A DNA stretch of 64,000 bases, from positions 21,858 through 85,857 of the forward strand of contig UQVP01000001.1 of assembly GCA_900544605.1 (NCBI GenBank), read 5' to 3'. This document shows, piece by piece, positions 8,529 through 55,693 of the stretch. The position numbers and the translations under genes were made by a program. The stretch comes from an uncultured Mycoplasmatota bacterium (lineage in GTDB: Bacteria; Bacillota_I; Bacilli_A; RF39; UBA660). The notes under the pieces were generated by a model. It was not told where the DNA came from. It saw only the letters and a program-made list of their open reading frames with translations, and did not search any database. The first letter of the stretch is position 1, and each line of letters opens with the position of its first letter.

Positions 8529-10991
8529 TTATTTTTCATTTGTTGATTCAACGACATCTTCGGTTCCATCATTATCATCTTTTTTTAATATTGATATATT
8601 TCCGACCTTTTGGTTATCTTTTAAATTTATCAATCTTACACCTTGAGCTACTCTTCCAGTGTTAGATACTTGCGTTAAATTTAAACGTATGATTATTCCA
8701 GAATTAGTAACAATCATTAAATCTTCATCACCTTCAACCATTCTGAAAGCAACTATATTACCGTTTTTTTCTGTTATATTTAAAGCTTTTACACCTTTGC
8801 TACCACGATGTGTCATTCTGTATTCATCTATGCTAGTTTTCTTTCCGTATCCATTTTCAGTAACTATTAATACGTTTTTATTTGGATCAGAAACTTCACA
8901 TCCTACAGCTTTTCCATCATCAACTTCAATTCCCTTAACACCGGCAGCACTTCTACCCATAACTCTGATTTCATCTTCTTTAAATCTGATCATTCTTCCA
9001 TTTGAAGATGCTATTAATATTTGATTATTTCCGGTAGTTTTCTTAACATCTAGTAATTCATCATCTTCTCTTAGTGTTATTGCAAATTTACCGTTTGATC
9101 TAATACTATCAAATTCTTCAAGCTTAGTTCTCTTAACTAAACCTGTTTGTGTACAAAATACAATATATTTAGATTCGTCATTGTTTTCTATCTTTAACAT
9201 AGCTTTAACAACTTCTTCTTTTTCTATAGGTAATAAATTAATTATTGGAATTCCTTTTGATTGTCTATTAAATAAAGGAATTTCATAACCTTTTAATCTA
9301 TATACTTTTCCTTTATTTGTAAAGAATAATATATAATCATGAGTTGTCATAGAAAGTAAATATTGTACAAAATCTTCTTCATTTGTAGACATTCCTTTAA
9401 TTCCAACTCCACCTCTATTTTGAGATTTAAAATTATCACTTAATACACGTTTTATATATCCCTTGTTAGTCAAAGTAATTACAATATCTTCAACCGGTAT
9501 TAATGATTCATCTTCTATATAATCTATAGCTGTCATATCAATTTTTGTTCTTCTATCATCACTGTATTTATTTTTAATTTCAGTTAATTCTAACTTAATT
9601 ATATCTAATACTTTTTGTTCAGAACCTAAAATTGCCTTTAATTCTTTAATACGTTCTAATAAATCATTTAATTCATTTTCAATCTTATCTTTTTCTAGAC
9701 CAGTTAATCTTCTTAACTTCATTTCCAAAATAGCTTCACATTGAATTTCATCTAAAGGAAATTTAGACATTAACTGTTCTTTAGCTATATCATCTGTCTT
9801 TGAAGCTTTAATTATCTTAATAACTTCATCAATATTGTCTAAAGCAACTTTTAATCCTTCTAAAATATGAACTCTAGCTTCACATTTGTTCAAATCAAAT
9901 CTTGTTCTTCTTATAATAATTTCTTTTTGGTAGTCAATATATTTGGTTATGATATCTTTAAGTCCAAGAGTTTTTGGAACACCATTATCAAGCATTAAAA
10001 ATATAATTCCATAATTTGTTTGAAATTGAGTATGTTTATATAAATTATTTAAAACAACTTGTGGATTTGCATCCCTTTTTAATGTAATAGTTATTTTAAT
10101 ACCATCTTTTAAGTCGGTATGATAATCAGAAATACCATCTATTGTTTTATTATGTACTAATTCTGCAACTTTATTTTTTAATTCCATTGTATTAACACCA
10201 TATGGAACTTCATCAATTACTATATAATTTTTTCCATCTTTTTCTTCTATAGTAGCATTACTTCTTATAGTAATAGTACCACGGCCTGTTTCATAAGCTT
10301 TTTTTATACCACTATTACCTAAAATTATGCCACCAGTAGGAAAATCTGGCCCTTTTATATATTCCATCAAACCTAAAGTATCAATGTCTGGATTATCAAT
10401 ATAAGCAATACAACCATCTATTACTTCACCTAAATTATGTGGTGGAATATTAGTTGCCATACCCACAGCAATACCCATTGTTCCATTAACTAATATGTTA
10501 GGAAACCTTGATGGTAATATTGATGGTTCTTTTTCTGATTCATCAAAGTTTGGAATAAAATTAACAGTATCTTTATTAATATCTCTTAGTAATTCTAATG
10601 ATATTTTTGATAATCTAGATTCAGTATAACGCATTGCTGCTGCTCCATACCCTTCAATATTACCAAAATTACCGTGTCCGTCCACTAACATATGACGATA
10701 ATTAAAATCTTGAGCCATTCTTACCATTGCTTCATATATTGAAGAATCTCCATGTGGGTGATATTTTCCCATTACATCTCCGACTATACGAGCTGATTTT
10801 TTATGAGGTTTGTCTGGTGTATATCCAGATTCATACATTGACCATAAAATTCTACGATGAACTGGCTTTAAACCGTCACGTAAATCTGGTAAAGCACGTG
10901 ATACGATTACACTCATAGAATACTCTAAAAATGATGATTTTACCTCTTCTACTATGTTATTTTCTTCTAATCTATCTCTACTATGATCCAT
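8529..10991 (-). CDS. gyrA: DNA gyrase subunit A
   Basis: 820 aa; N-terminal QRDR-region motifs and C-terminal beta-pinwheel repeats; gyrB-gyrA synteny. Confidence 0.95.
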
Positions 10992-11003
10992 ATACTACAC
11001 CTC

Positions 11004-12929
11004 CTAAATATCCAAATTTTCTACATATACTGCATTATTTTCTATAAATTCTCTTCTTGGTTCTACTTCATCACCCATTAATTTAGAGAATACTTCATCT
11101 GCAGCTATTAAATCATCTACAGTTATTTTTCTTAGTATTCTTGTATTTATATCCATTGTTGTTTCATTTAATTCTTCTGCATCCATTTCTCCTAAACCTT
11201 TCATACGAGCTATATCATATTTTGTATTAGGATTTAATGAAGCTAAATAAGAATCTCTCTCTTCTTCATTTAATACATATTTAATTGTTTTACCATGTTT
11301 TATACAAAATAATGGTGGTTGAGCTGCATATACGTGTCCTGCCTCTACTATTGGTCTAAAGAATCTATAAAATAAAGTTAACAACAATACTCTAATATGT
11401 GATCCATCGACATCGGCATCGGTCATAATTATTATTTTATGATATCTTAACTTACTTAAATCGAATTCAGTTCCTATACCTGTTCCAAAAGCTGTTATTA
11501 TTGTTCTAATTTCTTCATTTGATAAAGCTCTATCTAATCTTGCTTTTTCCACATTAAGTATTTTACCTCTTAAAGGTAAAATAGCCTGAGTCATTGAATT
11601 TCTACCTTTAATAGCGGATCCACCAGCCGAATCTCCTTCGACTAAAAATATTTCGCATATTTTAGGATCTTTATCCTTACAATCAACTAATTTTCCACCA
11701 AAATTAACAACATCCAAATCACTTTTTCTTCTAGTTAATTCTCTTGCTTTTTTTGCAGCAACTCTAGCACGTGCTGCTGTCATTGTTTTTTCTATTATTA
11801 ATTTAGCTTCATCTGGATTTTCCATTAAAAATCTTTCAAATCCCGCAGAAAAAACATTATCAGCAAGCTTTCTTACTTCAGAATTTCCTAATCTTCCCTT
11901 TGTTTGGCCTTCAAATTGTGGATTAGGATGTTTACAAGAAACAATCATCGTTAATCCTTCTTTAACATCATCACCAGTTAAAGAATCATCTTTTTCCTTT
12001 AAAAAATTATTCTTTCTTGCATAATTATTTATTATACGAGTTAAAGCTCTTCTAACTCCTTCTTCATGAGTACCACCATCATGAGTGTTAATATTATTAA
12101 CAAATGAGTAAATACTATCTGTGTAACCAGAATTATATTGCATAGCAACTTCAAACATAACACCATCATCTTCACCCTCTAAGTGAATTATTTGTTCATG
12201 AATTGGTGTTTTATTTCTGTTTAAATATCTTACATATTCACTTATTCCACCTTCATAATGAAATACTTCTCCAGTTGTATCTTCTTCATCTCTATCATCT
12301 CTTAATGTTAATCTTAAACCTTTATTTAAAAAAGCTAATTCTCTAGTTCTTGTTTTTAATGTCTCATAATCATATATATCTGTATCAAAAATTTCTGGAT
12401 CCGGTTTAAATGAAACTGTTGTTCCTGTTCTATTTGGATCACAATCACCTATAACGGTTAATTTTTGAACGATTTTTCCTCCATCAGCAAACTTTGCTTC
12501 ATATATTTTTGAATCTTTGTAAACTGTTACTGTTACCCATTTAGATAAAGCATTAACAACGCTAGCTCCTACTCCATGAAGACCTCCGGATACTTTATAT
12601 CCTCCTCCTCCAAATTTTCCACCAGCATGTAATACAGTATAAACAGTTTCTACTGTGGATAATCCCGTCTTAGGATGTACTCCAACAGGAATACCTCTAC
12701 CATTATCCTTAACTGTAATAGAATTATCTTTATTAATTATTATTTCAATATTATTACAATATCCAGCTAAAGCTTCGTCTATAGAGTTATCTACTATTTC
12801 CCATACCAAATGATGTAATCCCTTTACATCTGTTGTTCCTATGTACATACCAGGACGTTTTCTAACGGCTTCTAAACCTTCCAATACTTGAATATCAGAT
12901 GCATCATAATGTTGATTATTTTGTTCCAT
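11004..12929 (-). CDS. gyrB: DNA gyrase subunit B
   Basis: GHKL ATPase, Toprim (EGDSAGG), [12 protein letters not shown] motif. Confidence 0.95.
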
Positions 12930-12930
12930 T

Positions 12931-14043
12931 TTATTCCACCTCTTCTATTTTTCCACCATTTATCTTTATTAGATTAGATGTATTAATTAAGTTTTCATCT
13001 AAATTTGATAAATCTGTTGTTGTTATAATTGTTTGAATTTCATTGTTAATATAGTTTAGTAAACTATTTTTTTTATTATTGTCTAATTCACTAAATACAT
13101 CATCTAAAAGTAATATAGGTTTTGTCTGTTTAAAATCATTAAAAATATTTATTTCGGATAATTTAAACACTAAAACACCTAAACGTTGTTGACCTTGTGA
13201 ACCATACAATTTTAAATTTTTACTCTCGTATATAAACTCAAAATCATCTTTTTGAGGACCTAACAATGTGATTTTATATTTTTTATCCCTATATAAATTC
13301 TTTTTATATTCCTCTTTTATTTTAGTTTTAATATCTTCATCATTAAAATCAAAATGATCAAAATTAGTTTTATATACAATTTCATAATTATCGCTATTAT
13401 ATATTTTTTCACTTATATGCTTACTATATTGATTAATTTTATAAATGTATTTTTTACGCATTTTATATATATATATACTTTTATCAATTAAATGATCTGT
13501 TATAATATCAAAATAATTATCATCAAAATCGATTCTATCAACATATTTTTTTAGATAATCATTTCTAATTTTTAATAATTTATTATAGTCGCTTATATTT
13601 TTAAAATATATACTTGATAATTGACTTAATTGGATATTTAAATATCTTCTTCTTACTTCTGGATTACCTTTTATCAAATTTAAATCATCAGGATAAAAGA
13701 AAATTGTGTTAATGTTAGATATATAATCACTAATTTTATTAATTTTATCATCATTTATTTTTAATAATTTTTTGTGATTAATTAATTCTATAGAATATTT
13801 ATTGGTTAAGTCATTATCTTTAATAATACCTTCAACAAATAAACTATCTTCTCCATTCTTTATTAAATTATTATCCAAAAAAGAATGATGTGATTTAGTT
13901 ACCGATAAATAATATATAGATTCTAATAAATTTGTCTTCCCTTGAGCATTATTTCCATAGATAATATTAATGCCAGGAGTAAAATCTAATACTAATTTTT
14001 CATAATTTCTAAAATTATGTAATTTTATCTTGCTCAAATACAT
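12931..14043 (-). CDS. recF: DNA replication and repair protein RecF
   Basis: Walker [13 protein letters not shown]-like signature region; 2 nt before gyrB. Confidence 0.9.
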
Positions 14044-14150
14044 ATAACACCCCTGTTTTTGATATTTTTAAGGCTGTAGAAGAAAAAAAGTACATTTTTA
14101 ATATTCCTATACATCATATATATTATATCATAAATTTGATAATAAAAAGC

Positions 14151-14181
14151 AAAAAAATAGGTAAAAGTACCTATTTTTTTT
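14151..14181. terminator. Bidirectional intrinsic terminator downstream of comK-like gene
   Basis: A7-TAGGTA-aaag-TACCTA-T8 hairpin. Confidence 0.55.
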
Positions 14182-14185
14182 ATTA

Positions 14186-14635
14186 TTATTGGTTTTTTCG
14201 ACTTCTTAAAATTGATTCTAAACGAGATGCACGTAAAATTTGACTTTCTAATGTAAATATAGAAATATCTAAATTCAAATTAGTATCATTTTTAAAAGTA
14301 ATATTGGAACCCTTATTACATCTAACATAATTTTTTAAATTATTTAAAGAAATCCAAGCACATTCTACTAATCTTGGTGATGCGGTTGGAAAAAAGATAA
14401 TACTTCTACTCTCTTCTACTATGATAGGTAATTTATAGCTCATTCCTAACATATTTTTAGTACCTTCATATCTACCTTGATAATTACTCCCATAATAACA
14501 ACAGCTTTCATTTATAATTTCAAAAACAGGTTTATCAATTATGTATTCATTTCCTATTTCTATTATTCTAGTTGTGGTTTCATCTATAGGAACGATTGCT
14601 AAAGTACCAATATTAATTTCATAACTATGCAACAT
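14186..14635 (-). CDS. comK: ComK-family competence transcription factor homolog (likely true start at ATG 14633-14635 rather than the ORF-track start at 14695)
   Basis: ...SYEINIGTLAIVPIDE...CCYYGSNYQGR...KLPIIVEESRSIIFFPTASPRLVECAWISL... matches B. subtilis ComK blocks (SYEVNGATIAVLPEE / CRFFGSSYAGR / KPPIMVDPSNQIFLFPTLSSTRPQCGWIS, recalled from memory). A strong RBS AGGGAGGTG lies 7 nt upstream of the internal Met (M21 of the track ORF). Confidence 0.75.
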   Translation of the reverse strand: MLHSYEINIGTLAIVPIDETTTRIIEIGNEYIIDKPVFEIINESCCYYGSNYQGRYEGTKNMLGMSYKLPIIVEESRSIIFFPTASPRLVECAWISLNNLKNYVRCNKGSNITFKNDTNLNLDISIFTLESQILRASRLESILRSRKNQ

Positions 14636-14700
14636 TAAATTCACCTCCCTACTTATAAATTTCCACAAAAAATGGAAATTTCCTTTCTTATACATTAATT

Positions 14701-14730
14701 TTTTGTCAAATTTTGTCGATTTTTGTCGAA
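14701..14730. promoter_or_regulatory. Three tandem 10-bp repeats TTTTGTCAAA/TTTTGTCGAT/TTTTGTCGAA containing Spo0A-box-like heptamers (TGTCGAA consensus)
   Basis: Direct repeats read from sequence in the comK-like upstream region; TGTCGAA (14725-14731) is a perfect 0A box. Confidence 0.45.
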
Positions 14731-14769
14731 AAAAAAGGAAAATTTAATATTTTCCTTAAAATTTATCAA

Positions 14770-15891
14770 CTAATATGTTCTTATAGGTAAAATTAATTGT
14801 ATCAAATCATCATTAGATGCATCTTTAATAATTATAGGTTTTATTTCACCATTAAATAATAATTTAACATTATCACATTCCATTACTTTTAATGCATCCA
14901 TCATAAATTTAGAACTAAAAGCTATTTTTATATCATTATTATTACTTTCTATAATATCTAATTTTTCTTCTACATTACCAATTTCAGGAATATTAGATCT
15001 TAATAAAATTTTATTATCTATTATACTTAATTTTACTGTATTTTTATCTGCCTCATTTGTTAATAATGATGCCCTATCAATAGAATTATATAAATCTTTT
15101 AAATTTACTATTATTTCTGTTGAAAATTCTTCTGGGATTAATTTTGATGTATCAGGATAAGAGCCATTTATCAATCTTGACATAAATATAATTGTATCAA
15201 ACATAAATATAATTTTATTATTGAATATATGAATTTTTATTTCTGCTTCATCATCATTTAATAACTTTAACAATTCATTTAAATTTCTAGTTGGAATTAT
15301 TATATTTATTTTTTCATTACTTTCAAATGGTAATTTTATTTTTTTACTTGCTAATCGATATGAATCTGTTGCTGTACATTCTAAAATATCTTGATTTATT
15401 TTTAAATTTATACCAGTTAATACAGGTCTTGATTCTTGTGTAGATGTTGCAAATATAGTCTGATTTATTATGTTTTTAAATACTTTTTGATTTAAAACAA
15501 TAGGATTTTTATTTTCTTCTAATTCTAATTTTGGAAAATCGTTTACTAAATTACAATTTAAATTAAAAGAAGAATTTTTTGTGTTAATAAAGATTTTAGA
15601 ATCCATAACTTCTTCTATATCAATTATTTCATTTGGTAATTTTTTAATAATATCATATATATATCTACCAGATACTACAATATCACCAAGTGTATCAATA
15701 TTCTCAATATCTTCTTTTTTGATAAATGTTTTTATTGAAATTTCATTATCAGTACTTAACAAGTATAAACCTTCACTTTTTAATTCAAATTTTATACAAT
15801 TTAGAATTGGTATCAAATTTTTATTTGATATTCCCTTAATAACATAATTTAAATGCTCCATTAATATATTTTGTTTAATTTTTAATTTCAT
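14770..15891 (-). CDS. dnaN: DNA polymerase III beta sliding clamp
   Basis: 373 aa; MKLKIKQNIL... beta-clamp three-domain length; dnaA-dnaN synteny. Confidence 0.9.
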   Translation of the reverse strand: MKLKIKQNILMEHLNYVIKGISNKNLIPILNCIKFELKSEGLYLLSTDNEISIKTFIKKEDIENIDTLGDIVVSGRYIYDIIKKLPNEIIDIEEVMDSKIFINTKNSSFNLNCNLVNDFPKLELEENKNPIVLNQKVFKNIINQTIFATSTQESRPVLTGINLKINQDILECTATDSYRLASKKIKLPFESNEKINIIIPTRNLNELLKLLNDDEAEIKIHIFNNKIIFMFDTIIFMSRLINGSYPDTSKLIPEEFSTEIIVNLKDLYNSIDRASLLTNEADKNTVKLSIIDNKILLRSNIPEIGNVEEKLDIIESNNNDIKIAFSSKFMMDALKVMECDNVKLLFNGEIKPIIIKDASNDDLIQLILPIRTY

Positions 15892-16042
15892 AAAAAACCT
15901 CCCTAATTTATTATTATTTTAATTATTATCTTTATTATTAATGTGTAAAATGTTTAAAACTTAATTATTTGTTAAAAAATAAAGTAATTTACTATTAGAA
16001 TAACTGTGGAAAACAATTTTAAAATTTTAAATTTTCCACTTT
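15892..16042. promoter_or_regulatory. oriC: oriC part 1 (dnaA-dnaN intergenic): AT-rich candidate unwinding element plus DnaA boxes
   Basis: TGTGGAAAA at 16005-16013 and TTTTCCACt at 16032-16040; very AT-rich tract 15895-15990. Confidence 0.6.
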
Positions 16043-17404
16043 TTATTTAATTTGATTAACAATTTTATTAATTTGTTCTTCTAATTCATGATTAGTTTTT
16101 ATTTCTTTTTTTATTTTATCTACTGAATGCATAACAGTTGTATGATCTTTTCCACCAAATTCTAATCCTATTTTAGGCAATGATTCAGCTAAATAAGTTC
16201 TACAAATATACATTCCTACTTGCCTTGGTACAGAAATACTTGCCATCCTTTTTTTACTTTTAATATCTTCAACAGATATATTGTAAGCATTTGCAATTAA
16301 TTGTTGTACTTGTTCAATCTTATTTTTTGATATAATACTTTTTACAAAATAGTCTTTTAGTGCTTCTGTTGCAAGTTCAATTGTAATATCAGACCCATTC
16401 ATTATGGTTGCATAAGCGAAAACTCTAGTTATTGCACCTTCTAATTTTCTAATATCAGATGTACAATTGCTGGCAATATATTCTTTAACCTCTATAGGAA
16501 AATCATTGCACACATCATTAGCTTCTATTTTTTTGTCTATTATATCCATTCTTAATTTAAAATCTGGTGGTAGAATATCTATTGTTAATCCCCAATTGAA
16601 TCTTGTTCTAAGTCTTTCTTCTAATTTTTTTAAATCATCTGGTGATCTATCAGAAGAAATAATTATTTGCTTATTATTACAATGTAATTCATTAAATGTG
16701 TTGAAAAATTCTTGTTGTGTTTTGCTAGCTATTTCTAGGTATTGAATATCATCAATCATTAAAACATCAACATTTCTATATTTATTTTTAAATTCATCAA
16801 CAGCATCAAAATTATTTTCATCTTTATTTTTTCTATAAATATTTAGAAAATCATCAACAAATTTTTCACTTGTGACATATAAAACTTTTTTATTACTATT
16901 TTTAACAATATAATTACCTATCGCGTGCATTAAATGTGTTTTTCCTAGTCCACTACTACCATATATAAACAAAGGATTGTACATAAAACCAGGTTGTTCT
17001 GCTACCGCTAAAGAAGTAGCCTTCGCAAATTTATTACTATTTCCCACAATAAAATTATCAAAAGTATATTTAGGGTCGAGATTAGATTCATATAGATTAT
17101 TAGATGGAACCCCTACTTTATCAACGTCAATTGTAACATTTTTAACAATTTCTTCTTCTAATAAATATTCAAATTTAAAATTGCTACCAGTTATCTCTGT
17201 GAAAATTTCTTCTATTAAATTATTATAATTTTCTTTTAAATGTTTCTTATGTACTTGCATGGGAACTAAAATTTTGGCTGTATTATCGTTTAGTTCTATT
17301 AATTTAGTGTCCATAAACCATGTTTCATATAGTATAGGATCTAATTCAGCTTTTATTTTTTCAAGAAACAAGCTCCATATTGTATTAATATCCACACAAA
17401 ACAC
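16043..17404 (-). CDS. dnaA: Chromosomal replication initiator protein DnaA
   Basis: AAA+ Walker A GSSGLGKTHL, C-terminal DnaA-box-binding domain; flanked by DnaA-box clusters. Confidence 0.95.
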   Translation of the reverse strand: MFCVDINTIWSLFLEKIKAELDPILYETWFMDTKLIELNDNTAKILVPMQVHKKHLKENYNNLIEEIFTEITGSNFKFEYLLEEEIVKNVTIDVDKVGVPSNNLYESNLDPKYTFDNFIVGNSNKFAKATSLAVAEQPGFMYNPLFIYGSSGLGKTHLMHAIGNYIVKNSNKKVLYVTSEKFVDDFLNIYRKNKDENNFDAVDEFKNKYRNVDVLMIDDIQYLEIASKTQQEFFNTFNELHCNNKQIIISSDRSPDDLKKLEERLRTRFNWGLTIDILPPDFKLRMDIIDKKIEANDVCNDFPIEVKEYIASNCTSDIRKLEGAITRVFAYATIMNGSDITIELATEALKDYFVKSIISKNKIEQVQQLIANAYNISVEDIKSKKRMASISVPRQVGMYICRTYLAESLPKIGLEFGGKDHTTVMHSVDKIKKEIKTNHELEEQINKIVNQIK

Positions 17405-17758
17405 CTCACTTTAATAACAGTTAACATTATTTTACACCAAAAAAATATAAAAACCAATATTAAACTGTGGAAAAAAGCAAAAATCGACAAATTAACACAA
17501 TTTTCCACACAAATTGACATTAAATAATAAGATAAAAACATACTTTTCAACATAAGATGTGGAAAAGTAATTAACATATAATTTTGATTGTTATTAAGTT
17601 TTCCACATATACTGTGGAAAATATGGTTAGATATTATAAAATATATTAAAAATACTTGTGGAAAAAAGTTATAATAATAGCTAAAAAATATTTGACAAAT
17701 AAGAAAAATATCTATATAATGGTTAAAGCGATGAAATATAGGCTTTAGGAGGTGGAAT
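17405..17758. promoter_or_regulatory. oriC: oriC part 2 (dnaA-rpmH intergenic): cluster of at least 7 DnaA boxes (TTTTCCACA / TGTGGAAAA)
   Basis: Boxes at 17466-17474, 17501-17509, 17557-17565, 17599-17607, 17613-17621 and 17657-17665, plus ATATCCACA at 17389-17397. A 0A-box-like TGTCGAT (reverse complement of aaatcgaca at about 17483-17492) lies between boxes. Confidence 0.8.
17692..17720 (+). promoter_or_regulatory. Consensus sigma-A promoter for rpmH-rnpA (TTGACA-17-TATAAT)
   Basis: ttgaca at 17692-17697, 17-nt spacer, tataat at 17715-17720. Confidence 0.7.
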
Positions 17759-17881
17759 ATGAAAAGAACATTTCAACCAAACAATAGAAAAAGAAGTAAA
17801 AAAATGGGTTTTTTAGCTCGTATGAAAACTAAAATGATCAATTCTAGAAGAAGAAAGGGTCGTAAAGTTTTATCACATTAA
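17759..17881 (+). CDS. rpmH: 50S ribosomal protein L34
   Basis: [40 protein letters not shown] (40 aa), RBS GGAGGTG; not in the ORF track (too short). Confidence 0.95.
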
Positions 17882-17886
17882 TTTAA

Positions 17887-17914
17887 GGCCACTGCTTAAC
17901 AGTGGCTTTTAGTT
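17887..17914 (+). terminator. Hairpin (GCCACTG-cttaa-CAGTGGC) plus U tract after rpmH
   Basis: Read from sequence; may be a partial terminator/attenuator, since rnpA follows. Confidence 0.5.
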
Positions 17915-17929
17915 TAAAGAAGGTGCCTT

Positions 17930-18280
17930 ATGAAAAAAGAAAATATAATAAAGAAAAGCTTAGATTTTGATAGAATAATAAAAAATAATAAATCATATAA
18001 ATATAAAGATTATATAATTTATTTAGAAAAAACAGAAAATAATACTTATCATTTTGGTTTATCTGTTGGTAAAAAAATAGGTAATGCTGTAACAAGAAAT
18101 AAAATCAAGAGACAGTTAAAAAATATAATTGATAAAAATAACTATGAAAAAGGAATTAATTGTATTATAATAGTAAGGAAAGGTTTATTAGAAAAAACTT
18201 ATCAAGAAAAAGAAAAAATTTTACTTGAAGCATTTCACAAATTAAATATAATTAAGGAGAAAAATAATGAAAAAAAATAA
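17930..18280 (+). CDS. rnpA: Ribonuclease P protein component
   Basis: 116 aa basic protein immediately after rpmH. Confidence 0.9.
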   Translation: MKKENIIKKSLDFDRIIKNNKSYKYKDYIIYLEKTENNTYHFGLSVGKKIGNAVTRNKIKRQLKNIIDKNNYEKGINCIIIVRKGLLEKTYQEKEKILLEAFHKLNIIKEKNNEKK

Positions 18281-38094: not shown

Positions 38095-38160
38095 AAAATT
38101 ATTCAATTGAATAAAAATTTAAAAGATTGCCCACTATTAAATAGAAAGGACAATCTTTTT

Positions 38161-38685
38161 ATGAAAAAAACAATATTTATTTTAATAACAATATTTTTAA
38201 TTTATTATATAATTGGAGCTTTAAGTGAGGAGATAATAAGGATTCCAGACGAGGCAATTAGATTTAGAGTAATAGCTAATAGTAATACAAAACAAGATCA
38301 AGATGTAAAATATAAAGTAAAAGATGAAGTAGAATCATATATGGCTTCTATTTTACAAAATGTTGATACTATTGATGAATCTAGAGCTATTATTTCTACT
38401 AATTTAGATAGTATAAATAGTAAAGTAACTAATGTATTTAATAGAAATAATTATAATCTAAATTATAAAGTTAATTTTGGATTAAATTACTTTCCAGAAA
38501 AGGAATTCAAAGGAATAACTTATGATGCGGGATATTATGAATCATTAGTTATTACTATTGGAGAAGGAAAAGGGGATAATTGGTGGTGTGTATTATTTCC
38601 TCCACTTTGTATGTTAGAAGCCGAAGAAAGTACAGAAGTTGAATATAAATCTTTTGTAAAAGAAATTATTGATAAATATATATAG
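38161..38685 (+). CDS. spoIIR: Stage II sporulation protein R (start moved to MKKTIFIL at 38161)
   Basis: ...IRFRVIANSNTKQDQDVKYKVKDEV...GDNWWCVLFPPLCM matches the SpoIIR family; RBS AAAGGA upstream of 38161. Confidence 0.8.
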   Translation: MKKTIFILITIFLIYYIIGALSEEIIRIPDEAIRFRVIANSNTKQDQDVKYKVKDEVESYMASILQNVDTIDESRAIISTNLDSINSKVTNVFNRNNYNLNYKVNFGLNYFPEKEFKGITYDAGYYESLVITIGEGKGDNWWCVLFPPLCMLEAEESTEVEYKSFVKEIIDKYI

Positions 38686-44500: not shown

Positions 44501-45733
44501 TTATTTTTTAATTATTTTTTTAACTGTTTTATAAGTCTTAAACATGAAATTATATAAACAATATTTAGGTTTTGATATTATTAAGTCAAATTCTCCAATT
44601 AGTTCAACAACTCGTCCGCCAAAACCTCTTTTAAATTCATAAACACCATACATATCATTGTTTTCTTTTTCAAAATTACCACTTATACCATAGAAGTTAT
44701 ATATTTCACATCCTAAATTTAAGGCTTCTTTCATCGTATGCCATTTTATCAAATATTGAGCATCATAATGCATAAATTCTTCATAAGCTCCACCAAATAA
44801 ATTTAAATATTCTTTTCCACATACAATAGACATTGTGCCTGCCAAAGGGATTTTATCACCATATTTTTTTTGGTAACTCTCGTATAGTTCTATTTTCTTT
44901 TTATAATCTTCTATATCTTTCAAATGATAATCTTTAATATCTTGGTACCCTTCAATCTTTTTTATTTCATCTTTAAATTTATTTATACCTAAATTTGTAT
45001 CAAGGTAGCACACATTTATTATTAGGTTCTCTCCAATTTTATCATACATGTTTTCATAATACGAATAAGGTCTATCAATGAAATCACGTCTAGAACTTGT
45101 GTGTTCCATTATTTTTTTGTAGTCCATTAGTTTATCTTTAGAAATTCTTTCAACAACTAAACCTTGCTTTTCTGTTCTTCTAATCGTTTTTCGATAATGT
45201 TTACTAAAGTTAGAAAAAATTTCATCTTCGGTCTTACCTTTTAAATCTAAAACGTACATCCAACGAGGTTGCAATTCTTTAGATATATCTTTGTTAAAAC
45301 CATAATGTTTAAAGCCTAATTTCTTTAAATTTTCTACTACTTTGGAGTTGTCAACTCCACCTTCAACGATATTTCCATCAATATCTCTTGTTTTGTATTC
45401 AACATAGGGATCTATTTTCAAAATAAACCCGTTTTCCCTTTTTACATATTCTTTAATTTCCAAAACAAACTCTTTTAATAATTCTTCATCATTATAATCA
45501 ATTAAAAAACCTCTTGGTGAATAAAAAAGCTTTAATCCTAGTGGGAGATTTTTAAATAATAATAAAGTTGCTCCAACAATTTTATTATTTTTCTTCATTC
45601 CTACTAATTTGTAATTCCAACCACCATCTTTTTTTAGTTTTCCCCAATATTCTTTTTGATAAAAAGTTGTATATTTATTTTTTGAGATATATTCTTCATA
45701 TTCGTTACTTTCTAATTCTTCTATTTTCATCAT
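44501..45733 (-). CDS. FemAB-family aminoacyl-tRNA-dependent peptidoglycan branch-peptide transferase (paralog 1)
   Basis: 410 aa; two GNAT-like lobes with coiled-coil insert typical of FemA/FemX/MurM; similar to the two downstream paralogs. Confidence 0.75.
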   Translation of the reverse strand: MMKIEELESNEYEEYISKNKYTTFYQKEYWGKLKKDGGWNYKLVGMKKNNKIVGATLLLFKNLPLGLKLFYSPRGFLIDYNDEELLKEFVLEIKEYVKRENGFILKIDPYVEYKTRDIDGNIVEGGVDNSKVVENLKKLGFKHYGFNKDISKELQPRWMYVLDLKGKTEDEIFSNFSKHYRKTIRRTEKQGLVVERISKDKLMDYKKIMEHTSSRRDFIDRPYSYYENMYDKIGENLIINVCYLDTNLGINKFKDEIKKIEGYQDIKDYHLKDIEDYKKKIELYESYQKKYGDKIPLAGTMSIVCGKEYLNLFGGAYEEFMHYDAQYLIKWHTMKEALNLGCEIYNFYGISGNFEKENNDMYGVYEFKRGFGGRVVELIGEFDLIISKPKYCLYNFMFKTYKTVKKIIKK

Positions 45734-45923
45734 ATCCCTCCAAGCCTAAGGCAATTATATCACGCCAACAAAAATCTGTAAATAAATATAGGTTAAAATA
45801 ACTGACACTAGTATATCTGTTTTTAATGTCGTTTATTGACTAGTTTAGTGATTTTCTTTAAAAAACTTTTATTAAAAATTATTTTGTAGTATGATATTAA
45901 TAGTTATGATTGGAGGGAATTTA

Positions 45924-47162
45924 ATGAAATTCGAAATATTAAGTGAAGATGAATATAATAATTTTTTTGACAATCATGAACAAAAAACATTTTTAAATAG
46001 CCCTAATATTGGTAAAATTCGCAAACTAGAAGGTTGGAATTATGAATTTGTTGGTGTAAAAGATGTCGACAATAAAATAATAGGCGTTACTATGTTATTG
46101 TCTAGGAAAGAATTTCTAGGTAAAAAAGAATTTTATGCAATTAGAGGTTTTTTGTTAGATTACAATAATTTTAAGTTACTATCCTTTTTTACAGATAATA
46201 TTAAAAAATATATAAAGAAAAATAATGGCTTTATATTAAGAATTGATCCCTATATTATCAAACAAGAACATGACTTAAATGGAAATGTTATGCCAAATGG
46301 AAAAAATAATATTATGGCTATAAAAAATCTATTGAAACTAAATTTTAAGGAACATACACCAGAGCAAACAAAGTGGATGTTTGAACTTAATACTGAAAAT
46401 AAGACTATAGATGAACTTTTAAAAGATATGAAAGCTAATACTAGAAATTGTATTAAAAGAACTTTTAAAAATGGAATTAACATTAGAGAACTTACTTATG
46501 ATGAGCTACCTCTCTTTTATAAAATAACAAATGATACTAGTAAAAGAAAAGGTTTTGAAAATAAAACTTTAGAATATTATCAAGACATGTATAAATTTTT
46601 CAAACCAAGTAATCAAGTTAAATTTTTGGTGGCTGAATTAAATACAAAAAATTATAAAGAAAACCTAGATAATCAATTAAAGACAGAAGAGAATATTTTA
46701 AGAGGAATAAAAAATAATAATAGTGGAAAATATAAAGAACAACTAGTAAAGATTAATAGTATTAAAAAAAATCTCAAAGAATCATCTGAGTTGATAAAAA
46801 AAGGAGATATAATCATTTTATCAGCAGCAATGTTTGTTATGTATGGAAATGAAGTTATTTATCTTGCTAGTGGAAATTACCAAGAATATTTTAATTTTTT
46901 TGCTCAATATAGAATTCAATATGAAATGATTAAATATGCAACAGAAAATAACTTTAAAATATATAATTTTTATGGTATAAGTGGTAATTTTGATATCAAT
47001 GATGATAGAATTGGTGTCTATGAATTTAAAAAAGGATTTGGTGGATTTGTAGTTGAATTAATTGGCGAGTATAGATTAGATATTAATAAATTATGGTGCA
47101 TTCTTTATGATTTTGTTAATGTTATTAAAAATAATATAAAGAAAATAATAAATGGGAAGTGA
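45924..47162 (+). CDS. FemAB-family peptidoglycan branch-peptide transferase (paralog 2; start moved to MKFEIL, RBS GGAGGG)
   Basis: Shared blocks with paralogs 1 and 3 (WN(Y/F)...VG..., GFGG(F/R)VVELIGE). Confidence 0.75.
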   Translation: MKFEILSEDEYNNFFDNHEQKTFLNSPNIGKIRKLEGWNYEFVGVKDVDNKIIGVTMLLSRKEFLGKKEFYAIRGFLLDYNNFKLLSFFTDNIKKYIKKNNGFILRIDPYIIKQEHDLNGNVMPNGKNNIMAIKNLLKLNFKEHTPEQTKWMFELNTENKTIDELLKDMKANTRNCIKRTFKNGINIRELTYDELPLFYKITNDTSKRKGFENKTLEYYQDMYKFFKPSNQVKFLVAELNTKNYKENLDNQLKTEENILRGIKNNNSGKYKEQLVKINSIKKNLKESSELIKKGDIIILSAAMFVMYGNEVIYLASGNYQEYFNFFAQYRIQYEMIKYATENNFKIYNFYGISGNFDINDDRIGVYEFKKGFGGFVVELIGEYRLDINKLWCILYDFVNVIKNNIKKIINGK

Positions 47163-47166
47163 TATT

Positions 47167-48435
47167 ATGAAATATGAATTTATAGAAAAAATTGAAAAAA
47201 AAGAGTATGAAAAATTTGTGGAAAATCATCCAACTAAATCACATTTTATGCAATCGTGGAATTTTGGGGAAATAAGTAAAGAAAAAGGATTTATTCCTCA
47301 TTTCGTTGGCGTTAGGAAAAATAAAAAGTTAGTAGCAACAGCTTTACTACTTCAAAAAAAATTATATAAAAATATTTGTTATTTCTATAGCCCTCGTGGT
47401 TATGTTTTAGATTTTAAAGATTATGAATTATTAAAATATTTTACTAATCAAATTAAAGAGTATACCAAAAAATATCATTCTATTTTTACAGCAATAGATC
47501 CTGATGTACAACTTCAAAAGTTAGATATTAATGGAAATGTTGTAGAAGGAGATCATAATTATGCATTAGTTGAATATTTAAAATCGCTAGGTTATAAACA
47601 TCTTGGTTTTAATAAAAATTTTGAAAATAAAGAACCAAGATATACATTTAGATTAAATTTAGAACCAAGTATAGAGGAAATACATAAAAATATGCATGCA
47701 ACAACAAGAAAAATTCTAAATAAAGGTAATCAGTATAACTTAGATTGTTATATTGGTGATTCTTCAGATTTAGATGGATTCTATTTTACGATGAAAGAAA
47801 CAGCAGTTCGAGAGGGTATAACACCATTTAAATATTCATACTATAAATCTTTTTATGAAACATTTAATAAAGATAATGAAAGTGATTTATATATAGTAAG
47901 AGTTGATATTAATAAATTAAAAGAAAATTATAAAAATCAAATAAAAGACATTGAAAATAGTATTGACAATCTAAAAAATTTAAAAAATAAAGAAAAAGCT
48001 AATAATTTATTAAAAGATTACAATAATAAATTATCTAGATTAAATAAAGATTTTGAGTTAATAAATAATATAAAGGAAGATAAATTAGTTTTATCATCAA
48101 TTATAACAGTAAAATATGGTAATAAAGTTTGGACTGTTCATGGTGGTAATTGCAATAGATTAAGAGAATTGAATGCCAATTATTTAATATACGATAAAAT
48201 CATTTGCGATGCTAAAAAGGAAAATTATCAAATAATTGATTTCTTTGGAACAACTGGCGCAGACTCAGATGATAATAAAATTCATGGTATCCATTTATTT
48301 AAAAAACGTTTAGGTGGAGAATATACTGAATTTATAGGTGAATTCCATTTAATAACAAATAAAGTTTTATATGTTTTATATCAAAAATTATTACCATTAT
48401 ATTCAAAAATGCGTAAAAAAATTGCTAAAAAATAA
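47167..48435 (+). CDS. FemAB-family peptidoglycan branch-peptide transferase (paralog 3; start MKYEFIEK)
   Basis: As above; tandem with paralog 2. Confidence 0.75.
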   Translation: MKYEFIEKIEKKEYEKFVENHPTKSHFMQSWNFGEISKEKGFIPHFVGVRKNKKLVATALLLQKKLYKNICYFYSPRGYVLDFKDYELLKYFTNQIKEYTKKYHSIFTAIDPDVQLQKLDINGNVVEGDHNYALVEYLKSLGYKHLGFNKNFENKEPRYTFRLNLEPSIEEIHKNMHATTRKILNKGNQYNLDCYIGDSSDLDGFYFTMKETAVREGITPFKYSYYKSFYETFNKDNESDLYIVRVDINKLKENYKNQIKDIENSIDNLKNLKNKEKANNLLKDYNNKLSRLNKDFELINNIKEDKLVLSSIITVKYGNKVWTVHGGNCNRLRELNANYLIYDKIICDAKKENYQIIDFFGTTGADSDDNKIHGIHLFKKRLGGEYTEFIGEFHLITNKVLYVLYQKLLPLYSKMRKKIAKK

Positions 48436-53777: not shown

Positions 53778-54692
53778 ATGAAAAAAATCATTTTAATCAT
53801 TTTAGCAATTATTTTTATCCCATATATTATTGTAAGTTTGTTCATAAGAACTGATGATATAAAATTTTATTATAAAGAAGGAATGAATGTTAGGGTAAAA
53901 AGAGAACAAACTAATACTATAGAAGTTGTTCCTTTTGAAGATTATGTTGTTGGTGTTTTAGCAGGAGAAATGCCAGTCAATTTTGAGTTAGAAGCATTAA
54001 AAGCTCAAGCAGTAGCAGCTAGAACATATGTCATGAAAAAAATGAGTGATAATAGAAACCAAGATTATGATATTGTTGATACAGTTCAAAATCAAGTATA
54101 TATTAGTGATGAAGAGCTAAAAGATAAATGGCAAGATAAATATCAAGAACGAATTAATAAGGTAAAAACAGCTGTATTAGAAACAAAAGGAGAATACTTG
54201 TCTTATAATGGCAAAGTAATAGAAGCTTTCTTTTTTTCTACAAGTGTAGGAAAAACAGAAAACAGTGAAGAAGTTTTTAAAGAGTCTCTTCCATATCTTA
54301 GAAGCGTAGATTCGACTTGGGATGAAGAAGTATCACCTGTATTTAATGATTCAAAAGAATACAGTTTACAAGAATTTTTTGAACGTCTAAATTTAAAATA
54401 CTCCGATCAAATTAATGTAGAAGTTTTAAATACTACAAGTACTGGCAGAATAAAAAATATCAAAATTAATGGCAAAAAATTTACTGGCAGTGAAGTATAT
54501 AAAAATTTAAATTTACGTTCAACTTTCTTTGAAATAAATCAGGTTGGTAGTAATGTTATTATCAATACCAAAGGATATGGACATGGCGTAGGAATGAGTC
54601 AATATGGAGCTCTAGCAATGGCAAAAAAAGGTTATAAATATGATGAAATCTTAAAATACTATTATCAAAATGTTCAAATTGAAAAAATTTAA
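53778..54692 (+). CDS. spoIID: Stage II sporulation protein D (lytic transglycosylase)
   Basis: ...VVGVLAGEMPVNFELEALKAQAVAARTYVMKK... SpoIID family block. Confidence 0.85.
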   Translation: MKKIILIILAIIFIPYIIVSLFIRTDDIKFYYKEGMNVRVKREQTNTIEVVPFEDYVVGVLAGEMPVNFELEALKAQAVAARTYVMKKMSDNRNQDYDIVDTVQNQVYISDEELKDKWQDKYQERINKVKTAVLETKGEYLSYNGKVIEAFFFSTSVGKTENSEEVFKESLPYLRSVDSTWDEEVSPVFNDSKEYSLQEFFERLNLKYSDQINVEVLNTTSTGRIKNIKINGKKFTGSEVYKNLNLRSTFFEINQVGSNVIINTKGYGHGVGMSQYGALAMAKKGYKYDEILKYYYQNVQIEKI

Positions 54693-54746
54693 AAAAATTA
54701 GTATAAATAAATCACTTTCTGTTCACACTTAAAATGAGGTGAGAAA

Positions 54747-55376
54747 GTGAAAAGAAGAAAATTAAAAAGACCAGTAGTATACGGTTTATATGCTTTAGGA
54801 TTTGTAATGTTATTAGGAACGCTATATCTTATAGATGGAATGTTCCCAACTAATAGTTTTAATGGTATAAATGATGATTATGTAAATAAGACTGTTTTAG
54901 AAGAAGATGTTCCTGTTGTTAATACAGAAAACACTATTATAAGACCATATTTAGTTAATGATGTAAGTATAGTTAAAAATTATTATGATTATAAAAGTGA
55001 AGCAGAAAATCAAGAAAAATCATTAATCTATTATGAAAATACTTATTTACAAAATAGTGGTGTTAGTTATGGAAGAGAAGCATCATTTGATGTAGTTTCT
55101 ATCTTAGATGGTACTGTTACATCTATTAAAGAAGATCAAAACCTAGGTAAAATTGTAGAAGTAACACATAGTAATGATATTATAAGCATTTATCAAAGTT
55201 TAAGCGATGTTAAAGTAAAAGAAAATCAAGAAATTAAACAAGGCGATATTATTGGAACTAGTGGTACTTGCAATATTGAGAACGATTTAAATAATCATTT
55301 ACACTTTGAAATGATTGTAAAAGGATCAATCGTAAATCCTGAAAATTACTATGACAAAAAAATTTCTGAATTATAG
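54747..55376 (+). CDS. spoIIQ: M23-family peptidase-like membrane protein, SpoIIQ-like by position (spoIID-X-spoIIID-mbl, Clostridial synteny)
   Basis: N-terminal TM anchor; C-terminal M23 HLHFE motif; first HxxxD motif not obvious (possibly degenerate). Confidence 0.5.
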   Translation: MKRRKLKRPVVYGLYALGFVMLLGTLYLIDGMFPTNSFNGINDDYVNKTVLEEDVPVVNTENTIIRPYLVNDVSIVKNYYDYKSEAENQEKSLIYYENTYLQNSGVSYGREASFDVVSILDGTVTSIKEDQNLGKIVEVTHSNDIISIYQSLSDVKVKENQEIKQGDIIGTSGTCNIENDLNNHLHFEMIVKGSIVNPENYYDKKISEL

Positions 55377-55438
55377 AGCTTAGCTCTTTTTTAGAATAAA
55401 AGCACCTCTAAATTATATAATTTATTAAGGGGTGTAAT

Positions 55439-55693
55439 ATGTTGAATAATATTTCTAATCGTGTTTTAGAAGAAGCTAATTATATTATTGATACTCATGA
55501 AACAATAAGAGAACTAGCAAAAATTTTTAGAGTTTCAAAAAGTACCGTTCATAAGGATTTGCATGAAAGATTACTTAAAATAGATAAAGATAAGTTTGAT
55601 ATTGTAGATAAAATTTTAAAATATCATACCGAAATAAGACATATTAGAGGTGGCGAATCGACAAAACAAAAATATTTAAATATAAATAGTTAA
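55439..55693 (+). CDS. spoIIID: Stage III sporulation protein D
   Basis: 84 aa HTH; ...AKIFRVSKSTVHKDL... matches SpoIIID. Confidence 0.9.
   Translation: MLNNISNRVLEEANYIIDTHETIRELAKIFRVSKSTVHKDLHERLLKIDKDKFDIVDKILKYHTEIRHIRGGESTKQKYLNINS

What the first reader, a model, noticed from the sequence alone, without database searches (positions are those of the whole stretch)
14186..14769. comK homolog inserted between dnaN and recF, preceded by tandem Spo0A-box-like decamers, palindromes and a DnaA-box-like motif
The conserved oriC gene block normally has yaaA (S4 RNA-binding protein) between dnaN and recF. Here that slot holds a ComK-family protein. Its true start is probably 14633-14635 (strong RBS AGGGAGGTG), not the longer track ORF. 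Directly upstream at 14701-14730 are three tandem 10-bp repeats TTTTGTCAAA / TTTTGTCGAT / TTTTGTCGAA, each containing a TGTCGAA-type Spo0A box. Between them and the RBS lie a perfect 10-bp palindrome GGAAATTTCC (about 14673-14682) and an inverted repeat TTTCCA-N7-TGGAAA that includes a DnaA-box-like ATTTCCACA. In B. subtilis Spo0A-P binds several 0A boxes in the comK promoter. A comK wired into the replication-origin gene cluster, with candidate Spo0A and DnaA inputs, would couple the competence regulator to sporulation and replication status.
Basis: partly seen in the sequence, partly recalled or inferred. Interest (0 to 1): 0.6.

Follow-up and report, generated by a model that had tools for sequence, protein, structure and literature searches.

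The report
Origin-embedded comK with Spo0A-type promoter boxes
A gene for the competence master regulator ComK sits between the replication genes dnaN and recF in a large group of uncultured, probably spore-forming gut bacteria, and its conserved promoter carries three evenly spaced sites that look like binding sites for the sporulation regulator Spo0A.

Summary

- **Gene.** The ORF is a full-length ComK-family gene (Pfam PF06338, E=6e-39). Its true start is 14635, giving 149 aa.
- **Position.** It is not a recent insertion. dnaA-dnaN-comK-recF-gyrB is conserved in 69 of 80 related species genomes, and in further contigs where DnaA identity falls to about 40%.
- **Promoter.** The three decamers at 14701-14730 belong to a stereotyped comK promoter. 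In order it has the dnaN terminator, three TGTCRAA boxes at 10-bp phasing, 11 bp, an extended -10 (TG-TATAAG) with no -35, a leader hairpin, a strong RBS and a terminator. The module stays with comK where comK lies away from oriC.
- **Same boxes elsewhere.** The same triple box at the same spacing precedes orphan histidine-kinase genes and spoVS in other low-GC contigs.
- **Spo0A link.** The window encodes SpoIIR, SpoIID and SpoIIID, so Spo0A is plausible. I could not show spo0A in the same genome.
- **Palindromes.** TTTCCA-N7-TGGAAA is a conserved RNA-level leader hairpin. GGAAATTTCC is incidental.
- **DnaA box.** Not supported.

Verdict: a new variant of the known Spo0A-to-comK wiring, of moderate interest.

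The parts
14186..14635 (-). comK-family coding sequence (149 aa; stop included)
   Evidence: Pfam PF06338, 133.6 bits, profile 3-150/152. Homologues are 147-154 aa. dN/dS 0.16-0.30.
14642..14650 (-). Shine-Dalgarno AGGGAGGTG, 6 nt before the ATG
   Evidence: Read directly. A GGAGG-type SD sits at the same place in related loci.
14657..14681 (-).
   Evidence: RNA fold -9.7 kcal/mol. A stem is present in most related loci with varying sequence: at least 8 pairs in 52% against 3.5% of shuffles. Isolated transitions are 10 G.U against 0 A.C. The sense strand folds better than the antisense in 62 of 80 loci, p=1e-8.
14661..14667 (-). Inverted 0A-like heptamer TGTGGAA (one mismatch to TGTCGAA) in the loop and 3' arm. 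On the + strand it forms part of the 'DnaA-box-like' ATTTCCACA.
   Evidence: TGTCGAA (at most 1 mismatch) at +25/+26 from the -10 start in 21 of 53 loci.
14682..14686 (-). Conserved A-N-A-G-G between the -10 and the hairpin; the probable transcription start lies at about 14679-14682
   Evidence: GG conserved in 45-46 of 49 loci. The start site is inferred from distance to the -10, not measured.
14687..14694 (-). Extended -10: TG + TATAAG
   Evidence: Consensus TGnTATAAG across 49 loci. No -35 at 16-18 bp: the nearest TTGACA is 11 bp away and the middle TCGACA 22 bp away.
14701..14710 (-). Box 3, TTTGACAAAA (TGTCAAA on the + strand), about -30 to -21
14711..14720 (-). Box 2, ATCGACAAAA (TGTCGAT on the + strand), about -40 to -31
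14721..14730 (-). Box 1, TTCGACAAAA (perfect TGTCGAA on the + strand), about -50 to -41
14728..14757 (-). dnaN terminator: hairpin AAGGAAAAU/AUUUUCCUU followed by U8
   Evidence: Fold -7.9 kcal/mol. A hairpin plus T-run lies at this place in nearly all related loci. The consensus scan missed it because it requires 3 G-C pairs.
14151..14180 (-). comK terminator (13-bp stem plus U-run)
   Evidence: Fold -13.4 kcal/mol, z=-5.05.
14770..15891 (-). dnaN (upstream neighbour)
12931..14043 (-). recF (downstream neighbour)
38107..38685 (+). spoIIR (context: evidence that the organism keeps a sporulation programme)
   Evidence: Pfam Spore_II_R, E=1e-42.
53778..55693 (+). spoIID, an M23 peptidase (SpoIIQ-like?) and spoIIID (context)
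   Evidence: Pfam SpoIID 3.7e-27, Peptidase_M23 4.5e-20, SpoIIID 2e-27.

Best explanation
**What it is.** 14186-14635 (- strand) encodes a functional ComK-family transcription factor. It occupies the dnaN-recF slot as an ancient, vertically inherited arrangement in a large lineage of uncultured, very low-GC gut Bacilli. I think this is RF39 or a related order, but that placement is inferred.

**How it is built.** comK is its own monocistronic unit, insulated by terminators on both sides. It is driven by an activator-dependent sigma-A-type promoter. Three heptamers of consensus TGTCRAA, each separated by 3 bp, lie at about -50, -40 and -30. They end exactly 11 bp upstream of an extended -10, and there is no -35.

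**Most likely mechanism (inferred, not shown).** Phosphorylated Spo0A, or a regulator with the same DNA specificity, binds the three phased boxes head to tail. It substitutes for the missing -35 and switches comK on as cells leave growth.

**Leader.** A fourth, inverted box at about +13 to +20 is well kept in many species but degenerate here (TGTGGAA). It may repress at high regulator levels, as the R boxes do in B. subtilis PcomK. The leader also folds into a 5'-proximal RNA hairpin that probably controls mRNA stability or translation.

**Position.** The origin location gives no DnaA-box input. At most it adds a gene-dosage effect.
For: **Shown**
- ComK membership.
- Short start.
- Purifying selection on comK.
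- Synteny in 69 of 80 species genomes, in distant homologues, and in 9 metagenome loci with ComK identity 30-51%.
- Fixed-register boxes at -38, -28 and -18 from the -10.
- Box consensus TGTCRAA. The positions that contact Spo0A are among the best kept: G2 in 41 of 49 loci and C4 in 36 of 49 in box 3.
- 48 of 53 loci have at least one box; 99% of shuffles have none.
- Strict tandem pairs occur in 29% of dnaN-comK spacers, against 0-3% of the two adjacent spacers, 8% of the 300 bp upstream of dnaA, and 0.1% of shuffles.
- The module accompanies comK outside oriC.
- A perfect triple box with the same 11-bp distance to a -10 precedes orphan histidine kinases, spoVS, mgtE and other genes in low-GC contigs.
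- Sporulation genes spoIIR, spoIID and spoIIID are in the window.

**From the literature**
- The 0A box is TGTCGAA. Sites are often two boxes 3 bp apart. Contacts are at G2, C4 and G5, and the specificity is shared by Bacillus and C. difficile (PMC2731898, PMC3485338).
- B. subtilis PcomK has three activating and two repressing Spo0A boxes (PMC3297582).

**From my own memory (a lead only)**
- The ChIP-derived consensus TTTGTCRAA.
- The 21-22-bp '-35-like' spacing of the Spo0A-activated spoIIG and spoIIE promoters, which matches box 2 here.
Against: - spo0A was not shown in this genome or in any genome that carries this comK. No assembly is shared between the comK loci and the Spo0A loci I retrieved.
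- No binding or transcript data exist. The transcription start is inferred.
- Box 2 is weaker than boxes 1 and 3, and G5 is only R.
- Only 8 of 53 loci have all three boxes within one mismatch.
- One clade has TCTACA boxes instead.
- The genes behind other triple boxes (mgtE, uncharacterised proteins) are not classic Spo0A targets.
- No comG, comE or comF genes lie in the 64-kb window, so the competence role itself is unverified.
Confidence: 0.58

Rival explanations
1. The phased boxes are bound by a regulator other than Spo0A. One candidate is ComK itself, as lineage-specific autoregulation. Another is an OmpR/PhoB-type response regulator, a class that typically binds direct repeats at 10-11-bp spacing.
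For: Direct repeats with helical phasing are typical of winged-helix response regulators (established knowledge). ComK autoregulates in B. subtilis (PMC3297582). spo0A was not demonstrated in the genome. One clade has TCTACA boxes that fit the 0A consensus less well.
Against: - The consensus is exactly TGTCRAA with 3-bp spacers.
- The promoter has no canonical ComK K-box AAAA-N5-TTTT.
- The same triple box precedes orphan histidine kinases and spoVS rather than DNA-uptake genes.
- The pilin-like genes next to comK in L073 and L035 lack the boxes.
Confidence: 0.25
2. comK is coupled to replication through DnaA binding at the DnaA-box-like ATTTCCACA (and TTTTCGACA) next to oriC.
For: ATTTCCACA (14659-14667) and TTTTCGACA (14724-14732) are each one mismatch from this organism's DnaA box TTTTCCACA. 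The gene lies about 1.3 kb from the dnaA-dnaN box cluster.
Against: - One-mismatch sites occur 64 times in 64 kb.
- The true boxes cluster at 17466-17665 and 15942-16013.
- The site is not conserved. Other species have TGTCGAA, TATCAAA, ATTGAAT and others at that position.
- The module is unchanged where comK is away from oriC.
- The mismatch in TTTTCGACA falls in the critical CACA part of the box.
Confidence: 0.03
3. The inverted repeat TTTCCA-N7-TGGAAA is a DNA operator for a dimeric repressor (or a pair of inverted Spo0A boxes), not an RNA structure.
For: In many species the arms are TTCGACA-N5-TGTCGAA, two inverted 0A boxes. An inverted TGTCGAA-like heptamer sits at a fixed position in 21 of 53 loci. 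RNAalifold found no common-register structure.
Against: - There are 31 different arm cores with complementarity kept.
- All 10 isolated transitions are G.U and none is A.C (p=0.002; not corrected for shared ancestry).
- The sense strand folds better than the antisense in 62 of 80 loci.
- The arms do not co-vary with the upstream boxes, which stay TCGACA.
- In L159 the stem pairs with the Shine-Dalgarno sequence.
Confidence: 0.2
4. The decamers are non-specific: phased A-tracts or an UP-like element, or low-complexity sequence left next to the terminator T-run.
For: The genome is 25.7% GC. Each unit ends in A4, so the array is intrinsically bent DNA. Box 1 overlaps the terminator T-run.
Against: The G/C-containing core GAC is the best conserved part of each unit in a very AT-rich background. 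The register relative to the -10 is fixed. Shuffles essentially never reproduce it.
Confidence: 0.06

Closest known systems
Bacillus subtilis comK promoter under direct Spo0A~P control (the 'temporal gate'; PMC3297582)
   Same: A ComK-family master regulator whose promoter carries several 0A-type boxes: three upstream, and others placed to repress.
   Different: - Here the boxes are contiguous, in one orientation at exact 10-bp phasing, and stand in place of the -35. In B. subtilis they are dispersed around a normal promoter that also has ComK boxes and Rok, CodY, DegU and AbrB inputs.
- No K-box was found here.
- The gene sits in the oriC gene block.
- The protein is 149 aa, against 192 aa for B. 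subtilis ComK as I recall it.
- A conserved leader hairpin is present.
Spo0A-activated sigma-A promoters spoIIG and spoIIE of B. subtilis (own knowledge; Satola/Baldus/Moran and York et al., cited in PMC12090719)
   Same: An activator-dependent promoter with a good -10, no -35 at the proper distance, and 0A boxes overlapping the -35 region. A '-35-like' hexamer lies about 21-22 bp from the -10 (box 2 here is 22 bp away).
   Different: The geometry is recalled from memory and was not verified in a paper I could read. Three boxes with a fixed 11-bp gap to the -10 form a stereotyped class here, shared by several genes.
Origin-proximal competence regulators in Streptococcus pneumoniae (comCDE gene dosage under replication stress; Slager et al. 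2014; own knowledge)
   Same: A competence master switch lies next to oriC, where replication stress raises its copy number.
   Different: The regulator family differs (ComK versus ComCDE/ComX). No evidence was gathered here for a dosage effect. It is an analogy only.
The dnaA-dnaN-yaaA(rlbA)-recF-remB-gyrB block of Bacillus (own knowledge)
   Same: The same conserved gene order around oriC, with bipartite DnaA-box clusters upstream of dnaA and between dnaA and dnaN.
   Different: The S4-domain yaaA slot is occupied by comK, and no remB lies between recF and gyrB.

Membership tests
ComK family (Pfam PF06338) | Full-length match to the ComK profile above the curated threshold | tested here: met
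   133.6 bits against a cutoff of 22.3; profile 3-150 of 152; E=6e-39. All 68 homologues carry PF06338.
ComK family (Pfam PF06338) | Gene under selection as a protein (not a pseudogene) | tested here: met
   dN/dS 0.16-0.30 against four relatives. 31 invariant columns across 21 sequences.
ComK family (Pfam PF06338) | Acts as activator of late competence genes (comG, comE, comF) present in the genome | not testable with these tools
   None of these genes is in the 64-kb window, and whole genomes could not be searched. The only hint is pilin-like (N_methyl) genes inserted next to comK in L073 and L035.
ComK family (Pfam PF06338) | Autoregulation through K-boxes (paired AAAA-N5-TTTT) in its own promoter, as in B. 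subtilis | tested here: not met
   No AAAA-N5-TTTT in 14636-14769. This is a feature of the B. subtilis system, not of the protein family.
NCBIfam curated ComK models | Hit to a curated NCBIfam model | tested here: not met
   No NCBIfam family at E<=1.
Spo0A binding site (0A boxes) | 7-bp core TGTCGAA with few mismatches | tested here: met
   TGTCGAA, TGTCGAT and TGTCAAA. The consensus over 49 species is TGTCRAA.
Spo0A binding site (0A boxes) | Adjacent boxes separated by 3 bp (10-bp period), same orientation | tested here: met
   Boxes start at -38, -28 and -18 from the -10. Literature geometry in PMC2731898.
Spo0A binding site (0A boxes) | Conservation of the contacted bases G2, C4 and G5 | tested here: inconclusive
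   In box 3, G2 is kept in 41 of 49 loci and C4 in 36 of 49. G5 is G or A in about equal numbers. Contacts per PMC3485338.
Spo0A binding site (0A boxes) | spo0A encoded in the same genome | not testable with these tools
   - Indirect support: spoIIR, spoIID and spoIIID are in the window.
[quoted passage not shown]
- AT-rich Spo0A proteins with a conserved recognition helix exist in similar contigs.
- No shared assembly was found.
Spo0A binding site (0A boxes) | Spo0A~P binding and Spo0A-dependent transcription | not testable with these tools
   Needs EMSA or footprinting and genetics.
DnaA box / oriC element | 9-mer close to the organism's consensus TTTTCCACA | tested here: met
   ATTTCCACA at 14659-14667 has one mismatch.
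DnaA box / oriC element | Clustering and conservation of the box across relatives | tested here: not met
   The site is single. 64 such sites occur in the window. The real clusters are at 17466-17665 and 15942-16013. Related species have unrelated sequences at this position.
Known RNA families (Rfam 15) | Leader matches a curated RNA family | tested here: not met
   No match at E<=1 in 13800-18000.

The most novel reading that the evidence does not exclude
A whole order-level lineage of uncultured, reduced-genome gut spore-formers has hard-wired ComK into the Spo0A regulon through a dedicated promoter class: three phased 0A boxes, 11 bp, then an extended -10. The same class drives orphan sporulation kinases and spoVS. 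The lineage has also fixed comK inside the oriC gene block. ComK induction would then combine Spo0A~P level with origin gene dosage, or with origin-first capture of the chromosome in the forespore. These never-cultured bacteria would be naturally transformable at the onset of sporulation.
Probability: 0.3. Interest if true: 0.65.

Novelty: new variant of a known kind. Interest (0 to 1): 0.5.

Why it matters
- **A prevalent, uncultured species.** The window's exact ComK sequence is indexed in 340 blocks of the public assembly collection. A conserved ComK under a sporulation-type switch predicts a competence-like state in it, and suggests how to induce that state. That would help genetics and cultivation of RF39-type gut bacteria.
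- **A computable promoter class.** The stereotyped triple-box promoter can be used to map a putative Spo0A regulon in thousands of metagenome-assembled genomes.
- **An evolutionary example.** The Spo0A-to-comK link, diffuse in B. subtilis, appears here in a minimal form.
- **An open question.** The fixed dnaN-comK-recF position, kept down to 30% ComK identity, asks whether chromosome position matters for this regulator.

Tried and rejected
1. **Linking spo0A to the comK-bearing genomes.**
   - A B. subtilis Spo0A C-domain search returned only Bacillus-like hits.
   - tblastn against all fetched DNA found none.
   - A search of 50%-identity representatives, followed by a profile of AT-rich Spo0A proteins, gave many low-GC Spo0A loci.
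   - Six look-ups showed no assembly in common with any comK locus.
   - The supplement of PMC10868615 did not list my MAG names.
2. **RNAalifold on a MAFFT alignment of 25 leaders.** It gave no consensus because the stems shift register. I used per-sequence stem finding and strand-asymmetry tests instead.
3. **All-transition count in stems.** This gave 18 G.U against 15 A.C, not significant. Only isolated transitions flanked by two pairs on each side gave 10 against 0.
4. **The terminator scan.** It found none, because its rule needs three G-C pairs. The hairpins were folded directly.
5. **Literature searches.** Searches for comK with dnaN/recF synteny and for RF39 with competence found nothing relevant. 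The spoIIG paper PMC205050 is not held.
6. **Structure and family searches.** No PDB relative of ComK, no NCBIfam hit, no Rfam hit.
7. **0A boxes upstream of spo0A in the AT-rich loci.** These were weak or variable and were not used as a control.

Full report
**Observation**

The window is 25.7% GC. The oriC gene block lies on the minus strand:

| Gene | Coordinates |
|---|---|
| dnaA | 17404-16043 |
| dnaN | 15891-14770 |
| the ORF in question | see below |
| recF | 14043-12931 |
| gyrB | 12929-11004 |
| gyrA | 10991-8529 |

rnpA, yidC, jag, mnmE and mnmG run divergently from dnaA.

**The gene**

- The ORF matches Pfam ComK over profile positions 3-150 of 152 (133 bits, E=6e-39).
- The match begins at residue 4 of the short form.
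- The 68 database homologues are almost all 147-154 aa, and public gene calls use 149 aa.
- AGGGAGGTG lies 6 nt before the ATG at 14635.
- The long-ORF ATG (14695) sits inside the -10 region.
- The short start is therefore right.
- dN/dS against four relatives is 0.16-0.30. The protein is under purifying selection but is the least constrained gene of the block; only recF, in one of the four comparisons, has a higher ratio.
- There is no solved structure and no NCBIfam model.

**Not an insertion**

- A scan of one genome per species found 538 relatives. The best 80 are uncultured gut 'Bacilli', 'Tenericutes' or 'Erysipelotrichaceae' MAGs.
- In 69 of the 80, comK lies in the ori block next to dnaN and/or recF, with DnaA identity down to about 50%. 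In 11 it lies elsewhere.
- Distant homologues (45-52% identity) and nine metagenome loci (ComK identity 30-51%, DnaA down to 40%) are in the same slot.
- The arrangement is therefore old and vertically inherited.
- The window's exact protein is indexed in 340 blocks of the assembly collection, for example NCBI GCA_934167185.1.

**The promoter module**

Aligning the dnaN-comK spacers shows one architecture, in this order:

1. the upstream gene's terminator hairpin and T-run;
2. two or three decamers WTCGACAAAA at 10-bp period;
3. 11 bp;
4. TGnTATAAG;
5. A-N-A-G-G;
6. an inverted repeat;
7. GGAGG;
8. ATG.

Supporting numbers:

- Anchored on the -10, TTCGACA (at most 1 mismatch) starts at -38, -28 and -18 in 27, 19 and 33 of 53 loci. 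An inverted TGTCGAA lies at +25/+26 in 21 loci.
- 8 loci have all three boxes, 20 have two, 20 have one and 5 have none. 99% of shuffles have none.
- Strict tandem pairs occur in 29% of dnaN-comK spacers. The figures are 0-3% for the neighbouring spacers, 8% upstream of dnaA and 0.1% for shuffles.
- Read on the other strand, each box is TGTC(G/A)AA. T1, G2, T3, C4 and A6 are strongly kept.
- No hexamer lies 16-18 bp from the -10. The proximal TTGACA is 11 bp away and the middle TCGACA is 22 bp away. The promoter therefore looks activator-dependent.
- The 11 loci where comK is not at oriC keep the same module. It belongs to comK, not to the origin.

**Who binds?**

- The core, the 3-bp spacers and the A/T flanks match published Spo0A sites. 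[quoted passage not shown]
- B. subtilis PcomK has three activating and two repressing Spo0A boxes (PMC3297582).
- A Pfam survey of the window found SpoIIR (1e-42), SpoIID, an adjacent M23 peptidase and SpoIIID (2e-27).
- PMC10868615 predicts RF39 to form spores and reports spo0A in the related RFN20 families CAG-631 and CAG-449. It reports spoIID and spoIIQ as retained in RF39 but mostly absent from ML615J-28 and RFN20. This fits the window.
- A metagenome scan for a perfect triple box returned, besides satellites and chance hits, low-GC loci with the same 11-bp gap to a -10. These lie upstream of nine comK genes, four or five orphan membrane histidine kinases, spoVS, mgtE and several uncharacterised genes.
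- That gene set fits a Spo0A-type global regulator better than ComK autoregulation. No K-box is present, and the pilin-like genes beside comK in L073 and L035 lack the boxes.
- I could not show spo0A in the same genome. The assignment therefore remains an inference.

**The palindromes**

- TTTCCA-N7-TGGAAA is the core of a 9-bp stem (14657-14681; -9.7 kcal/mol).
- Related loci have a stem at the same place but with 31 different arm cores. At least 8 pairs occur in 52% of loci against 3.5% of shuffles.
- Isolated transitions inside stems are 10 G.U against 0 A.C (p=0.002; not corrected for phylogeny).
- The sense strand folds better than the antisense in 62 of 80 loci (p=1e-8).
- This points to an RNA hairpin near the 5' end of the mRNA.
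- In a large subset the arms are themselves TTCGACA and TGTCGAA, so a DNA-level role as a downstream Spo0A operator is not excluded.
- GGAAATTTCC is only the junction of the conserved AGGAAAT with the 5' arm.
- No Rfam family matches.

**DnaA**

- The organism's boxes are TTTTCCACA. They cluster upstream of dnaA (six boxes) and between dnaA and dnaN.
- ATTTCCACA in the leader is one of 64 one-mismatch sites in the window, and it is not conserved.
- DnaA input is not supported.
- The origin position might still matter through copy number, but that is speculation.

**Verdict**

This is a real ComK gene with a well-defined, conserved and probably Spo0A-dependent promoter, in an ancient origin-embedded position. 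It is a new variant of a known regulatory link, of moderate interest.

Noticed in passing
window 38107-38685, 53778-55693: Sporulation genes in a 25.7%-GC genome of an uncultured gut lineage: spoIIR, spoIID, an M23 peptidase (SpoIIQ-like?), and spoIIID followed by mreB/mbl. spoIIR lies about 21 kb from oriC, as in B. subtilis, where its origin-proximal position matters.
   Followed up: partly
L117-L196 (e.g. L141 6162-6187, L147, L119, L138, L162, L164): A promoter class of three perfect TYGACA boxes at 10-bp period, 11 bp before a -10. It precedes orphan membrane histidine kinases, spoVS, mgtE and uncharacterised proteins in low-GC metagenome contigs. This may be a regulon signature.
   Followed up: partly
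P0215, P0266 (AT-rich Spo0A homologues; loci L087, L088 are relatives): Some very AT-rich Spo0A proteins have Asn where the phospho-accepting Asp should be (…LVVNLFLP…, …VIVNVNVP…), and a degenerate acidic pocket. This suggests phosphorylation-independent Spo0A variants. Their lineage is unknown.
   Followed up: no
L098-L103: Two convergent Spo0A paralogues (271 aa and 248 aa) lie next to each other in a prevalent low-GC organism.
   Followed up: no
L073 3397-3828; L035 2791-3864: In two species a type IV pilin-like gene (N-terminal methylation motif; one carries a Laminin_G_3 domain) is inserted between dnaN and comK. In L073 dnaN also appears split or frameshifted.
   Followed up: partly
window 10500-18000 versus L001: Mosaic divergence from the closest species. 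dS is 0.24 in gyrB, 0.45 in recF, 0.65 in dnaN, and about 1.0 in dnaA and comK. Nucleotide identity is 75-81% in comK against 92-98% in recF and gyrB. This suggests recombination across the origin region.
   Followed up: partly
L159 about 248-340: In this species the comK leader hairpin pairs CCCCC with the Shine-Dalgarno GGGGG, so the leader may control translation there. In the window the hairpin leaves the SD free.
   Followed up: no
L026, L041, L046, L063, L067, L075 (upstream of comK): In a clade where comK lies downstream of what looks, by eye, like a ligA gene, the phased boxes read TCTACA (TGTAGAA) instead of TCGACA, with the same 11-bp gap to the -10. TTCTACA also follows the spoIVB terminator upstream of spo0A in L088, L107 and L109, and lies upstream of spo0A in L090.
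   Followed up: no
loci L001-L080, 300 bp upstream of dnaA: 5 of 65 loci have tandem TTCGACA-like pairs upstream of dnaA, recalling the Spo0A boxes in B. subtilis oriC.
   Followed up: no
window 44501-48435: Three FemAB-family paralogues lie together (one on the - strand, two on the +). Next come a flippase-like gene and three M23 or LysM peptidase genes. This looks like a cell-wall cross-bridge cluster.
   Followed up: no
L121, L125, L139, L146, L160, L191 (Ga0126342 contigs): Long satellite arrays of a TYGACA-containing 10-bp unit occur in contigs of 35-48% GC from one metagenome. They are unrelated to the bacterial promoter.
   Followed up: no
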